A stretch of DNA of 64,000 nt, from NCBI GenBank assembly GCA_951406725.2, contig OX597825.1, positions 85,436,001 through 85,500,000 of the forward strand. The letters run 5' to 3'. The position numbers and the translations under genes were made by a program. The notes below the pieces were generated by a model. That model saw only the letters and a list, made by a program, of their open reading frames with translations. It had not been told where the DNA came from and ran no database searches. Positions 15,816 to 26,100 of this stretch are shown here, one piece after another; the stretch's first letter is position 1, and the number at the start of each line of letters is the position of its first letter. Origin of the DNA: Octopus vulgaris. Lineage: Eukaryota.

Positions 15816-17394
15816 TGTATACACATATATATATATATAAGCCTGCTCGCTTAGCCAGCGGGGTGGCGTCGTTCGAAGGCTAAAACAATGCGAACGCATT
15901 GTGACCAGTGATGTGTAGCAACATCTGATGATCTGGTCGGTCACGTGATATATAAATATATATATATACATATATATATATATATATATATATGTATGTA
16001 TATATATGTGTGTGTGGGTAGGTGGGTGTGTAACCAAGGGGATAGTTGCGTTGTTGTATAGGTATGCGTGTCTTTGTTTGCGTGTGTATTCTCTGTCTTG
16101 GCGTGTGTCTTCGTCCACATGTGTGTGTTGGAGTTTAGGAGCCTATGTACAATGTGTGCCCCGTGTTTTCACTGAACGTCTAGGCGAGTGTATATGCATG
16201 TCCTCATCTATATTTGAGAGTGCCTATATATACATATATACTCTCCGATGCATATATATATATATATATATATATATATATATACATTACATACACACAC
16301 ATATATACATACATATATATATATATATATATATATATATATATATATATATATATATATATATATATATACATATATATATATATATATATATATATAT
16401 ATATATATATATATATACATATATAATATATATATATATATATATATATATATACATATATATATACACATATATACACGCACACACATATATGTATGCA
16501 TGTATGTAGCTGTGTGTGTGTGTGTGTGTGTCTGCTGTTCGCAACAGTGTGGGCGCCCATCATGATTCCGTTTACTTTCCACTGTATTCAACATCAACAA
16601 AGCATTTATTGATTCTACACCGAATTTTCCTCTTGTCACCGTTGCCATGCCAACAACAGCGAAACGTGATTTATGTATGTGCATATAGTACGCGTACATA
16701 CATTATATAATTTACATATATACACACACACATACACTATATATATATATATATATATATATATATATATATACATATACACACACACATATATGTATAT
16801 ATATATATATATATACACACACAAATATGTGTATATATTTGTGTGTATGTATGCATGTATGTATATTTAAGAGTAAATAATTGAACGAATGTTACAACAA
16901 TATATTTGTTTCTCTCCGAAGGGGAGGCCATCAACCATTAAAATGTCGTTGCCAGTTATGGCTATATATAGACCTGTCATGGTTACCCAATGGTAACAAC
17001 ACAATCACAGTTCGAGATATTTAATGTAAAAAGAGGAGATATATAACAGCGAAATAAGGAGAAAGTAGTGGCGGGGGGGGGGGGGGTAATTTTATCGAAA
17101 TATTAATGGAATGGTACCGTACTAGTGAAAATGAAATTAAATTTGTCTTGGGAAATGTAGAAATGTATATTCGTTTTCAAGTGGCTCGTAAAATCTAATC
17201 ACACATTCTGAAGATGATTTTGTTATATGTTATGTTTTAGCATAGTGTTGTCACATGAAATTAGTAATAATGATAATAATAATAATAATAATAATAATAA
17301 TAATAATAATAATAATAATAATAATAATAATAATAATAATAATAATAATAATAATAATAATAATAATAATAATAATAATAATAATTCTAATAAT

Positions 17395-17907
17395 ACGGAA
17401 AGAGAGAAGTCGTGGTATGAGAGAATCCCAGAATGAAAATTGCAAAATCTTATGGGATTCAATAATTCAGGGCGATCATTTGACTAGACATTCGAAACTT
17501 GATTTTGTCGAGGTGAAAAAGAGAAAAAAACAGAAAGAACGTGCATGATAATTGCCATAGCATGCCCCGGTGACAACAGGATCAAAGAGAAAGAAAAAGT
17601 AATGAACAACTACGGTAAATTGAAGTGGGAAATACGAAGGTTGAAGTCAATGAGGAGAGTAGACGTGATACCAATAGTATTTGGTTCACTTGGAAGTATC
17701 AGCACTCAACTACCAAAATGGCTGAAAAAGATCGGTGCAAGTTTGAAGGTAGAACACCTGCAAAAAATAAGCATTGCTAGGAACTGCAAGAATTCTTCGC
17801 AGGGTTCTTGAAGCATGACCAATAAAACAAATGTCACCTTAGTCTGCTGGCTGTGGACAGCTGACACTTTCCACCATACCCAGCAATATAAGCTGTGAAT
17901 TTTCATA
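17395..17907 (+). mobile_element. 5'-truncated R4/Dong-like LINE, divergent subfamily, frameshifted
   Basis: WYERIPE..ENCKILWD..IACPGDNRIKEKEK..VIPIVFGSLG..LQK..LLGTARILRRVLEA*, followed by a short 3' UTR. (TAA)n on both sides. Confidence 0.88.
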
Positions 17908-18731
17908 TAATAATAATAATAATAATAATAATAATAATAATAATAATAATAATAATAATAATAATAATAATAATAATAATAATAGTAATAATAATAATAA
18001 TAATAATAATAATAATAATAATAATAATAATAATAATAATAATAATAATAATAAATAATAATAATAATAATAATAATAATAATAATAATAATAATAATAA
18101 TAATAATAATAATAATAATAGTAATAATAAAAATAATAATAATAATAATAATAATAATAATAATAATAATAATAATAATAATAATAATAATAATAATAAT
18201 AATAATAATAATAATAATAATAATAATAATAATAATAATAGTAATAATAATAATAATAATAATAATAATAATAATAGTAATAATAATAATAATAATAATA
18301 ATAATAATAATAATAATAATAATAATAATAATAATAATAATAATAATAATAATGATAATAATAATAATAATAATGATAATAATAATAATAATAATAATAA
18401 TAATAATAATAATAATAATGATAATAATAATGATAATAATAATAATAATAATAATAATAATAATAATAATAATAATAATAATAATAAGTAATGATAATAA
18501 TAATAATAATAATAATAATAATAATAATAATAATAATAATAATAATAATAATAATAATAATAATAATAATAAGTAATAATAATAATAATAATAATAATAA
18601 TAATAATAATAATAATAATAATAATAATAATAATAATAATAGTAATAATAATAATAATAATAATAATAATAATAATAATAATAATAATAATAATAATAAT
18701 AATAATAATAATAATAATAATAATAATAATA
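17908..18731. repeat. About 820 bp (TAA)n array with sparse TAG/TGA variants
   Basis: Directly visible. Confidence 0.98.
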
Positions 18732-18734
18732 AAA

Positions 18735-22700: not shown

Positions 22701-22791
22701 TAATAATAATAATAACAATAATAATAATAATAATAATAATAATAATAATAAAAATTATTATTGTTGTTGTTGTTGTTGTTGTTGTTATTAT

Positions 22792-23150
22792 CATTCCTTC
22801 GTAACAGAGTGTAAGTAAAAATGCGCCGGAGTCTTTAGTCATCTGTCAAGTGACAACAAGGACCTCAGACAGATAATAACTTTCCTTTAGATGTGCGCTG
22901 TGCCCAATAAGGCTGCTTTTTGCGAAACATCAATCTTGCATGGGATTTCCAGTTGCCTTAAGAAGTCTTGAAGTTTCAATGCGATTAAGCCCAACGCTCC
23001 AATCACCACTGGTATCACATTCCAAAAATGTTTGCCATTCCCACTTCCAGTTCGGAGTACTTGGTGATTTTTTTCAACCGCTTTACTCACAACATTCATA
23101 TTATGTAGTATAGCTACATCAATGATCTGACACTATTTGTCTCTCTTATT
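22792..23150 (-). mobile_element. 5'-truncated R4/Dong-like LINE, fourth subfamily
   Basis: CQIIDVAI..NVVSKAVEK(I)TKYSELE..VIPVVIGALGLI..QKAALLGTAHI. (TAA)n upstream and an ATAATAACAAC tail downstream on the minus strand. Confidence 0.87.
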
Positions 23151-26100
23151 CAATTATTATTATTATTATTACTATTATTATTATTATTATTATTATTATT
23201 ATTATTATTATTATTATTATTATTATTATTATTATTACTATTATTATTATTATTATTATTATTATTATTATTATTATTATTATTATTATTATTATTATTA
23301 CTATTATTATTATTATTATTATTATTATTATTATTATTATTATTATTATTATTATTGTTGTTGTTGTTGTTGTTGTTGCTTAGTATCATCATCATCATCT
23401 CGGCTTTGTATGTTTGTTCCTAGTTTTCTGTGTCATATTGTTTTATTTTCTGTCATTTGATATTTTTGTATGTTTTTTTTTATGCAAAAAAGAAAAACAA
23501 ATTTCGCTTTGTTGGCAAGTTGCCGAAGAGGAATGAATGAATGCAGCGATGTTTGGTTATAGTCTATGGAGAAGTCGACATTGGGAAGAGATGTAGTCAA
23601 TGAGACACACACACACACACACACACACACACACACACACACACACACACACACATATATATATATATATATATATGTATATATATGTATATGTCTATGT
23701 ACGCACACACATACACTCAAGAATACACACACATACACACACATACAAACACTTCCATGCACACATATGCGCATATGAGAATAAATATACGCAGTGACAC
23801 AGACGCATACACAAATATATTGAAATACACGCATAACTAACCACATGTATACATTTATTTATATATATTTGTATATGTGTGTGCGCATATATAAATGCAT
23901 GTATCTATGTATTTATAAGTGTATGTATGCGCGTATGTTTTGATGTACGTGTACACATACACACATACACACAAACATGCATGCACACATACACATATAT
24001 ACAGACAGACATACACACACACACACATATATATACATATATATGTGTATATATATATATATATAATGTGTGCGTGTGTGTGTGTGTATACATATAGTTG
24101 AAATTTACAGAAAAACAAAAGATGAAGACAGGTGTATAAACAACAGTTTCAAGCTCGGGAAGGTGAGAAAGTATTTCCCAATCACATGGTCTTGGGTTCA
24201 GTCCCTCTGCGTGGTAACTTGGCCTCGGGTTCGGCCAAAACCTTGTAAGTGGATTTGGTAGACGGAAACTGAAAGAAGTACGCGCGCGTGTGTGTGTTGT
24301 GTCTGTGTTTATTTTAATCTCTCCAGACAAGATATTCATGTATATAAATGCATGCACACACACACACACACACACACACACACACACACACACACACACA
24401 CACACATGCAACATTTTACTATTTTACCAATCGATAAAAGAATTCTCGTCAGGACTGGCCAAGATTCAGACAATATTTATGAGCAGTAAAGAAACCGGCA
24501 ACGGATTTTTAAAAGTTTCATACAGCAGAGTTTCTAGAAATAAAATACGCATGACAATCTTACTAGAATTAAATCCACTTTGAAGTATATTAAAAGGTTA
24601 CTGAAGAAGTTGTTTTGCAACGGAGTGTGTCTATATGTATGTCTGTTCCTCCTCTGTTAAATTTAAACATACTCATACAGTTATCAACAGACTGACGTAG
24701 ATGGATGGATAACACAGGCCCTTGGAATCCTTCTACATACATAACGTTAAAGACTTATGTATAAATATATGTTGTATGTGTTATTTAATGGTACTGTAAA
24801 TATATACTTTGCAAACAGTTCAATTTAAGCAATGGTGAATGTATATTTATTTTCATCCATTTTTCAAAACGTCGCCATCATTTCTATCACAGTCTTCGCT
24901 CTGTCTCCAGTTGTAATCTCTCTTTTTAAAGATTTACTATCTTTCTGTATTTCTTTGTTCTAGAGAGAGTAGGAGAAAGAGAAAAATATTGAAAGATTGA
25001 AAAGAAAATAGTTTGACGTCACAAAAACGTACCACCCCCAATATTGTTCATTTACTTCCATCTTTGTCTCTTTACCTTTTTATTGAAATATTGCACCAAA
25101 TGAATAACTCCGAGCAACGAAGGTTTAAAACAGCTTTGAACGAATATCGAACGAATACAGGAGTATTCTTTCTTCTATGATAACTTTCAGTCTCATACAA
25201 GAAGCTGCCCCGCCCATGAGAGTCCCATATTTTATTTCAGCTATACCATATCTAAAATGACATTATCTTGTGTTTCCTTCATTTATTTTTTATAGCAGAG
25301 TGTGATTTCTAGGAGGCAGAGCTGCCACTTAGAGAATATTCTTAATGCCTCAGAACGACTTGGAAAGATGCAAAAGAATATAAAACGTTCCACGTTTGTT
25401 TCCGTATTTGGTGTCAATGGATTTTGTGTCGGGATTATCTGCTAAAACCGTTAATACTGTTAAAAGACACGCAATAAAATTCAACCAATTAAATATACAT
25501 TTTACAAATAAAAAGAACAAAACAAATAAACTAATGTCTTCGCCTATTTATCCCAGTCCCCTCCCACCACGACCACCACCACTTCCTCTATACTAAACTT
25601 TGCTCGGTCTCAGTCATTTTATCTTCAAAATACACGTTTAACTGATTCTGCTGACTGCATAGTGTTTCGCGTTGATGCCTTTATTTAACTACCACCTTTC
25701 AGTTTGAAGAGAAATATGTGTGTGTGAGTAGAGGAGGTAGTGCTGAAGTGGTGGATGGTTTGTGGTGGTGAGCAGACCTTGTTTACGATGTCTAGTTCGA
25801 TTTATTATGATGTTGGTGTTCAATTCCCATCGGGGTCGATTTTACATTTCATCAATCTGCTGGAGTTGATTTAATCGACGGAAACCATTCTTGTGGAAAA
25901 CATGGCCTCAAGTCTTCTGTGGACTTATTTACATACTTAGATTAATATCTATCTGTATATCTATCTATCTATCTGTCTATCTGTGTGTCTGTCTCTCTGT
26001 CAATCTCCCGATAAATCTATCTATCGATATATCTATCTATGTGTATATATGCATGAGTATCTAAATGTGTGTGTGTATATATATATGACTGTATGAATAT

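What the first reader, a model, noticed from the sequence alone, without database searches (positions are those of the whole stretch)
17265..23360. Cluster of (TAA)n-targeted R4/Dong-like LINEs from at least four subfamilies with strict target polarity
Seen: five RLE fragments within 6 kb (17395, 18735 and 19168 on +; 21710 and 22792 on -), plus two elsewhere (1-292 and 32598-32727, both on -). In all seven the 5' junction abuts a trinucleotide tract that reads (TAA)n on the element's sense strand. Known: Dong-type R4-clade elements are site-specific for TAA repeats. Inference: several long-diverged lineages share this target in this genome and pile up serially, each insertion leaving more target for the next.
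Basis: partly seen in the sequence, partly recalled or inferred. Interest (0 to 1): 0.7.

Follow-up and report, generated by a model that had tools for sequence, protein, structure and literature searches.

The report
Dong retrotransposons stacked in TAA repeats
Pieces of four families of Dong-type jumping genes sit inside TAA repeats here, facing one way as they do at nearly all copies sampled across this genome, a habit already known for Dong; the new part is a very common 554-base non-coding element with the same landing site and orientation that likely hitch-hikes on them.

Summary
Observation confirmed; interpretation mostly right but largely known. All seven fragments are 3' pieces of RLE-type LINEs with (TAA)n at the 5' junction on the sense strand; the five in the cluster belong to four families of different age and form two arrays (A-B-C on +, E-D on -). 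Across the genome (likely an octopus), young copies of two intact families abut TAA directly or after a short stutter at 73 of 84 5' junctions, none at TTA; control 1.3%. Polarity is about 98-99%, not strict. TAA targeting by Dong in molluscs, and many Dong-R4 families in octopus, are in print. The cluster is 23% TAA (genome sample 1%), which largely explains the pile-up; that insertions create target is not shown. A tree with named references could not be built. Extra: a young 554-bp non-coding element (about 4,500 exact TAA-flanked starts; 2255 TAA vs 18 TTA on one strand) shares target, polarity, 3' phase and 5' stutters, so is likely a Dong passenger; 5' stutters also make new (GAA)n runs. 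The scan noted the TAA targeting and 3' hairpin before on other DNA of this genome (e1-9809270).

The parts
17265..17395 (+). (TAA)n target tract, 44 units, upstream of A
17396..17906 (+). Fragment A: 5'-truncated, decayed Dong-like LINE (RLE domain + 3'UTR with hairpin at 17828-17870); old family, best relatives 83-84% DNA
17907..18732 (+). (TAA)n tract, about 274 units, shared by A (3') and B (5')
18733..19078 (+). Fragment B: family F1, last 71 codons + 3'UTR, internal 32-bp tandem duplication
19079..19168 (+). (TAA)n tract, 30 units, between B and C
19169..19942 (+). Fragment C: family F1, CCHC knuckle + RLE (RPD..D..KY) open frame to 19841, 3'UTR ending AAAACTACTG; 97-98% to many copies
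19943..20106 (+). Compound (AAT)(AAG)(AAC) tract 3' of C
21476..21659 (-). Compound (CTA)(GAT)(AAT) tract 3' of D
21679..22412 (-). Fragment D: decayed relative of family F2 (74% DNA), with frameshifts and stops
22413..22485 (-). (TAA)n tract 5' of D
22486..22700 (+). Abundant SINE-like short repeat lying opposite to D and E (its tRNA origin is recalled, not tested)
22700..22786 (.). Mixed tract 3' of E: (AAC)n, three TAA, then a stretch in the opposite polarity
22787..23152 (-). Fragment E: old family, RLE end + 3'UTR, best relatives 85-87% DNA
23153..23356 (-). (TAA)n tract, 68 units, 5' of E
1..292 (-). Fragment F: fifth family, internally deleted; 5' TAA tract at 293-462; no TAA at the 3' side
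32056..32131 (+). Eighth piece (family H): 3'UTR only, 5' junction on a short repeat, TAA at 3'
32598..32728 (-). Fragment G: family E, cut at both ends; its 5' TAA tract is the 3' tract of element X
32767..33214 (-). Element X: 5'-truncated copy (positions 107-554, 98.9%) of a 554-bp non-coding repeat, TAA on both sides in Dong polarity

Best explanation
The seven pieces are 5'-truncated copies of Dong-type non-LTR retrotransposons that sit inside (TAA)n tracts with TAA on their sense strand, likely because their own endonuclease cuts the TTA strand and primes reverse transcription there, so long tracts collect copies of several families over time. Shown: one ORF of about 1,200 aa (helical N-terminal domain, RT, CCHC knuckle, PD..D nuclease); fixed 3' end followed by AATAAT; many different 5' break points that still abut TAA; sense polarity in about 98-99% of cases; four families of different age in the cluster. 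From established R2 biology, inferred for these elements: bottom-strand nick, target-primed reverse transcription from the RNA 3' end, microhomology joining at the 5' end; the N-terminal domain likely reads the repeat and a covarying 3'UTR hairpin likely marks the template. An insertion splits one tract into two, so target is kept; that it is increased is untested. Element X likely uses the same enzyme in trans.
For: 150 of 150 scored F1 hits are 96-100% identical without stops, several with 1,225-1,253-aa frames; second intact family with a 1,344-aa frame. RVT_1 and zf-RVT only in Pfam; best PDB sequence and fold matches are R2 proteins (model pLDDT 90). Young copies, loci picked by a TAA-containing pattern left out: 5' junctions F1 44 TAA, 6 stutter then TAA, 5 other, 0 TTA of 55; F2 20, 3, 6, 0 of 29; 3' TAA in 61 of 63 and 36 of 37; 26 different 50-bp break-point bins for F1, so the 5' TAA cannot be part of the element. 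Full-length F2 starts found without any flank condition: 29 of 30 read (of 34) have TAA upstream, 0 TTA. Old families keep the signal at lower rate: A 12 of 19, E 6 of 16, F 6 of 14. A different RLE lineage in the random sample shows no TAA at 4 of 4 loci. Papers (passages): TAA target for Dong in silkworm, mosquito and snail (PMC3812793) and 'most insects, mollusks and cnidarians' (PMC7998251); silkworm Dong 5' junction has TAA on the sense strand (PMC3774820).
Against: Exceptions exist: 2 TTA and 77 'none' among 225 readable segments; in the 590-kb sample 7 TAA, 1 TTA and 5 none among 13 Dong-like pieces (read by eye), the 'none' cases being old and decayed. No empty target site was compared, so cut site, duplication and net change of the tract are unknown. 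No named R4/Dong/Rex6/NeSL reference was obtainable for a tree. The N-terminal Myb-like fold is only weakly matched (Z up to 5.4). The enzyme steps are inferred from R2, not measured.
Confidence: 0.88

Rival explanations
1. The TAA tracts are the elements' own 3' tails; 5' TAA arises because copies are written head to tail in one event by template jumping, not by targeting.
For: The 3' flank starts in a fixed phase (AATAAT in 55 of 63 F1 copies). Three F1 anchors are followed after exactly 12 bp by a short piece of the same family (L020, L031, L044). B and C are one family in tandem.
Against: Most copies have no Dong neighbour yet have TAA at the 5' side; neighbours are often other, much older families; A, D, E are 10-25% diverged from their relatives while B, C are 2-3%. 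It may explain a minority of same-family pairs only.
Confidence: 0.07
2. Self-amplifying target: stuttering of the Dong reverse transcriptase at the junctions lengthens TAA (and makes GAA) tracts, so each insertion makes the site more attractive.
For: 5' stutters of 16-390 bp on F1, F2 and X, at full-length and truncated ends; (GAA)n runs of 10-27 units between TAA and the element in 5 of 30 full-length F2 starts; same-sense neighbours 27 of 74 vs 12 of 64.
Against: Added TAA cannot be told from target TAA in one assembly; the neighbour excess is twofold, one of the 27 is a misclassified short repeat, and the control is not weighted by tract length; ordinary slippage after insertion can lengthen tracts; 3' tracts of young copies (median 69-81 bp) are not longer than random tracts (mean 171 bp).
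Confidence: 0.3
3. Passive accumulation: insertion is only AT-biased and copies survive in microsatellite-rich, low-constraint DNA.
For: The genome is very rich in microsatellites; old copies often lack a readable tract.
Against: It cannot give strand polarity (0 TTA in 84 young junctions), a fixed 3' phase, or preference for TAA over the far commoner TA, CA and TATG repeats.
Confidence: 0.02

Closest known systems
Dong of Bombyx mori, DongAg, DongBg (snail), Dong1/2 of Darwinula stevensoni (R4 clade)
   Same: RT plus C-terminal restriction-like endonuclease, no N-terminal zinc finger, (TAA)n target, TAA on the sense strand at the 5' junction; both octopus families carry GCTCC near their 5' end, as the silkworm Dong junction primer does (PMC3774820, passage).
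   Different: Very high copy number and many co-existing lineages stacking in the same tracts; no HDV-like ribozyme detected at the 5' end here; frequent 5' stutters.
Dong-R4 families of Octopus vulgaris / O. bimaculoides (PMC13282606, PMC9115989, PMC8967140)
   Same: 51 Dong-R4 families, 92.7 Mb (supplement table row); 5 recently active families with 1,129 insertions; a full-ORF Dong in the O. bimaculoides library. Probably the same elements (inference; sequences not compared).
   Different: The passages seen give no target site, polarity, array or passenger element.
R2 (R2Bm, R2Tg)
   Same: Best solved-structure match; same RT-knuckle-RLE layout and, by inference, same TPRT mechanism.
   Different: Only 16-20% identity; R2 has N-terminal zinc fingers and targets one 28S rDNA site.
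EhSINE1 of Entamoeba and R2 SIDEs (for element X)
   Same: Non-coding, 500-600 bp, no clear tRNA head, moved by an RLE-type LINE (PMC2996970, PMC3774820, passages).
   Different: EhSINE1 shares about 70 bp of 3' sequence with its LINE and is not site-specific; SIDEs are internal deletions of R2. X shows no alignable sequence with F1 or F2 and is microsatellite-targeted.

Membership tests
R4/Dong clade | Single ORF with RT followed by CCHC knuckle and PD..D restriction-like endonuclease; no APE | tested here: met
R4/Dong clade | No N-terminal zinc finger (unlike R2, NeSL) | tested here: met
   No such Pfam hit and no CCHH motif in the N-terminal part of F1 or F2 by reading
R4/Dong clade | Diverged N-terminal Myb/SANT-like domain (PMC7998251) | tested here: inconclusive
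   Four-helix domain with two invariant Trp; no Foldseek hit at E<=0.001; many Myb/SANT rows but Z only 4.1-5.1, e.g. TRF1 Z 4.5, rmsd 2.1, 51 aligned; Zeste Z 4.7, rmsd 3.1, 69 aligned
Dong lineage | Insertion in (TAA)n, TAA on the sense strand on both sides | tested here: met
R4/Dong clade | RT phylogeny grouping with named R4, Dong, Rex6 to the exclusion of R2, NeSL, Hero | not testable with these tools
   Two homologue searches returned no protein named Dong, R4, Rex6 or NeSL; the tree has unnamed homologues only
Dong lineage | 5' HDV-like ribozyme (shown for silkworm Dong, PMC3774820) | tested here: inconclusive
   No Rfam hit; a recalled descriptor without positive control found none in F1, F1b, F2; GCTCC...GGAGC is shared by both families
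SINE (element X) | Head derived from tRNA, 7SL or 5S RNA | tested here: not met
   No ARAGORN gene in 3 loci; no credible Rfam match at E<=10
SINE (element X) | Short, non-coding, dispersed, fixed 3' end, 5' truncations | tested here: met
LINE-partnered non-autonomous element (element X) | 3' end shared in sequence or structure with the partner LINE | tested here: inconclusive
   No blast match to F1/F2; CCCCAG + 6-bp stem matches the Dong motif (pattern fitted after the fact, chance 0.001 strict, 0.08-0.16 loose); lower stem absent; model trained without F1 and X finds neither; no covariation among 87 X ends
SIDE (internally deleted derivative; element X) | 5' and 3' ends homologous to the autonomous element | tested here: not met
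   against F1 and F2 only; other Dong families were not available full length

The most novel reading that the evidence does not exclude
This genome holds a microsatellite-dwelling retroposon community: at least nine Dong lineages and a 554-bp non-coding passenger without tRNA head, tens of thousands of copies strong, all enter TAA tracts in one polarity through the Dong enzyme, whose end-of-template stutter writes tandem units and new trinucleotide repeats, so that the elements manufacture microsatellites, including their own target.
Probability: 0.3. Interest if true: 0.6.

Novelty: new member of a known kind. Interest (0 to 1): 0.33.

Why it matters
The finding as given extends a known target rule to a genome where Dong is one of the largest young LINE groups. 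It matters modestly: intact natural copies of two families give direct substrates for the untested question of how a Dong endonuclease reads a simple repeat on one strand; insertions inside microsatellites may be under-called by short-read tools, which could bear on the reported lack of new Dong insertions in octopus (PMC9115989; my inference); and element X, if it is a Dong passenger, would be a large site-specific non-autonomous family that I did not find described in the papers searched.

Tried and rejected
Named-reference tree: two homologue searches gave no named Dong/R4/Rex6/NeSL protein; the original Dong paper was not held; the careful tree did not finish and the quick one has 39 of 78 forks unsupported and two long-branch homologues. 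First junction library was contaminated by short repeats and was rebuilt after dropping 5 of 1,080 pieces. The 23 loci were found with TAA in the pattern and are left out; still includes them. Neighbour count over all copies (44 of 99) is biased by ascertainment and was replaced by anchors only. 5' ribozyme: no Rfam or descriptor hit for F1/F2; a descriptor hit inside X is at chance level (4 of 30 shuffles). Covariance model without F1 and X missed its positive control, so says nothing on X; its hit at 39412-39454 has no TAA or coding context and is taken as chance. X-to-Dong chimeras (3 found) could be template switches or later deletions; only L261 is age-matched. No fold match above Z 5.4 for the N-terminal domain. 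Sequencing-run search for X: no RNA holder listed; no reads were laid. The frequent 813-aa open frame starts just before an A run and looks like an indel there, not a second ORF (not examined further).
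Full report
Setting. The window is G000:C12:85436001-85500000 in a 2.8-Gb animal genome of 227 contigs. It is likely an octopus: inference from size, contig number and repeat make-up; earlier scan notes say the same.

Observation. A tblastn search of the window with the open frame at 19170-19841 finds all seven fragments on the stated strands. Each has (TAA)n at its 5' junction on the element strand; the same test at 20,000 random places in 59 stretches of 10 kb, taken at fixed steps on seven large contigs, gives TAA 1.3% and TTA 1.2%. 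B and C are one family; A, D and E are three more; G belongs to E's family and F to a fifth. The five form two arrays, A-B-C on + and E-(short repeat)-D on -. An eighth piece, a lone 3'UTR at about 32056-32131, has a short repeat, not TAA, at its 5' side.

What the elements are. Fragment C has at least 149 other copies at 96-98% amino-acid identity without stops; the first look listed 88,234 candidates, which are not copy numbers. Natural full-length copies (family F1, about 4.0 kb) carry one frame of 1,225-1,253 aa. A search with part of D led to a second intact family, F2 (4.6 kb, 1,344-aa open frame), 47% identical to F1; D itself is 74% identical to F2 DNA. Families A and E are decayed (63-80% and 58-84% identity, many with stops). 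Pfam shows RVT_1 and a sub-threshold zf-RVT only; the best solved relatives by sequence and fold are R2 proteins (model pLDDT 90). The N-terminal part folds as four helices with weak, inconclusive likeness to Myb/SANT domains. A quick tree of the C-terminal part shows at least nine lineages from this genome in two deep groups mixed with unnamed and insect homologues; support is low and no named reference is in it.

Target test. For young copies (93% or more to F1 or F2), leaving out loci that were found with TAA in the pattern and the window itself: F1 5' junctions 44 TAA within 12 bp, 6 stutter then TAA, 5 other, 0 TTA of 55; F2 20, 3, 6, 0 of 29; 3' TAA in 61 of 63 and 36 of 37, mostly starting AATAAT. 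F1 break points fall in 26 different 50-bp bins, so the 5' TAA is target, not element. Of 34 full-length F2 starts found with no flank condition, 30 were read: 16 TAA within 12 bp, 5 stutter, 5 with a (GAA)n run, 3 with other filler, then TAA; 1 without; 0 TTA. Old families: A 12 of 19, E 6 of 16, F 6 of 14 with TAA, 2 TTA; many of the rest abut a short repeat. Over all readable segments 137 TAA, 9 degenerate, 2 TTA, 77 none (36 at locus edges dropped). In the random sample, 13 Dong-like pieces read by eye give 7 TAA, 1 TTA, 5 none, and another RLE lineage shows no TAA at 4 of 4 loci. Polarity is therefore strong but not strict.

Piling up. At about 12 pieces per 590 kb, five in 6.1 kb is far above a uniform rate (P 2e-7, chosen after the fact), but the cluster is 23% TAA against 1.06% in the sample (1,383 of 6,096 vs 6,249 of 590,000 bases), which scales the expectation to about 2.7. 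Young anchors have a same-sense Dong or X beyond their 3' tract in 27 of 74 cases (one is a misclassified short repeat) against 12 of 64 random tracts (p=0.024); no opposite-sense Dong neighbour was seen. Age differences show separate events across families. Three same-family pairs with a 12-bp spacer may be single events. Whether insertion adds target cannot be read from one assembly.

Mechanism. Shown: fixed 3' end and phase, variable 5' ends, strand polarity, 5' stutters. Inferred from R2 (PMC3774820, passages on TPRT and microhomology priming): the nuclease nicks the TTA strand, the RNA 3' end is copied from that nick, and the 5' end joins by microhomology with occasional repeated re-priming. 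A bulged hairpin in six 3'UTR families covaries (10 of 14 pairs; 0 of 500 shuffles reach the score; rows were selected by the stem pattern, so this leans upward); I had noted the upper stem before reading e1-9809270, whose 'bulged' wording shaped the structure I tested.

Element X. A 554-bp non-coding repeat lies next to G. It has no tRNA or Rfam match and no alignable sequence with F1 or F2. Copies are 97-99% alike at the top, 7 lie in 590 kb. It has TAA at 56 of 56 3' ends in the same AATAAT phase and at 57 of 63 5' ends; genome-wide its exact start follows TAA 2255 times and TTA 18 times on the minus strand (about double for both strands). It shows the same 5' truncations and stutters as Dong and one age-matched chimera with F2. 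A Dong-like motif lies 17 bp from its 3' end, but the structural tests are inconclusive. I put the passenger reading at about 0.75.

What is known. Seen as passages only: PMC3812793 and PMC7998251 (TAA target of Dong, including molluscs; N-terminal Myb-like domain), PMC3774820 (Dong junction and ribozyme), PMC13282606 (5 recently active Dong-R4 families; one supplement row: 51 families, 92.7 Mb), PMC9115989, PMC8967140, PMC4640811, PMC2996970, PMC4758252, PMC3747384. Xiong and Eickbush 1993 was not held and Kojima and Fujiwara 2004 was not read. Searches showed no paper on the target site of octopus Dong or on a TAA-targeted non-autonomous partner; Repbase, Dfam and the published repeat libraries were not searchable and may hold X as an unclassified repeat.

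Verdict. Real feature, new member of a known kind. Interest 0.33; the passenger and microsatellite-making reading would deserve 0.6 at probability 0.3.

Noticed in passing
window 32767-33214 (-); full copy L071:2087-2640: Element X, 554 bp, non-coding, 93-99% between most copies; 7 copies in 590 kb (roughly 30,000 genome-wide, wide error); TAA at 56 of 56 3' ends and 57 of 63 5' ends; exact 5' start after TAA 2255 times vs after TTA 18 times on the minus strand (plus-strand counts hold overlaps). Likely Dong passenger; origin unknown.
   Followed up: yes
L031, L036, L050, L019, L048, L281, L284, L286, L049, L022, L176, L247: Tandem stutters of the first 16-70 bases at 5' junctions of F1, F2 and X, also at truncated ends; up to about 390 bp.
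   Followed up: partly
L276, L279, L283, L285, L292, L035, L167: (GAA)n runs of 9-27 units between the TAA tract and the element start: candidate microsatellites born at the junction.
   Followed up: partly
L264, L267, L180 (3' neighbour), L087:1453 (+): Exceptions to polarity; three read (TAA)n(TTA)n directly before the element, as if the upstream target were copied inverted.
   Followed up: partly
window 22486-22700, 31917-32060, 34178-34363; L052-L110: An abundant SINE-like repeat borders TAA tracts in the opposite orientation (10 of 64 random tracts, 0 in the same sense), so its tails may seed or share Dong targets.
   Followed up: partly
window 17828-17870, 32053-32095; alignment A4: Covarying bulged hairpin in 3'UTRs of six Dong families (10 of 14 pairs change on both sides; rows were picked by the stem pattern). 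Seen here before the look-up; also reported in e1-9809270.
   Followed up: yes
L261:827-900: TAA, 42 bp of X, then a young F2 3' piece joined at a 6-bp microhomology: possible template switch between X and Dong RNA.
   Followed up: partly
L066:+3074-4627, L075, L079, L108: A second RLE-type LINE lineage with no TAA association; clade not determined.
   Followed up: no
L031 (ORF region): A (GAA)n run inside the F1 ORF has expanded in frame (poly-Glu; 1,253 aa vs 1,225 aa).
   Followed up: no
window 29313-29720 (+) and 46227-46733 (+): Frames that look like decayed pieces of another LINE and of a mariner-type transposase (recalled resemblance; no Pfam hit).
   Followed up: no
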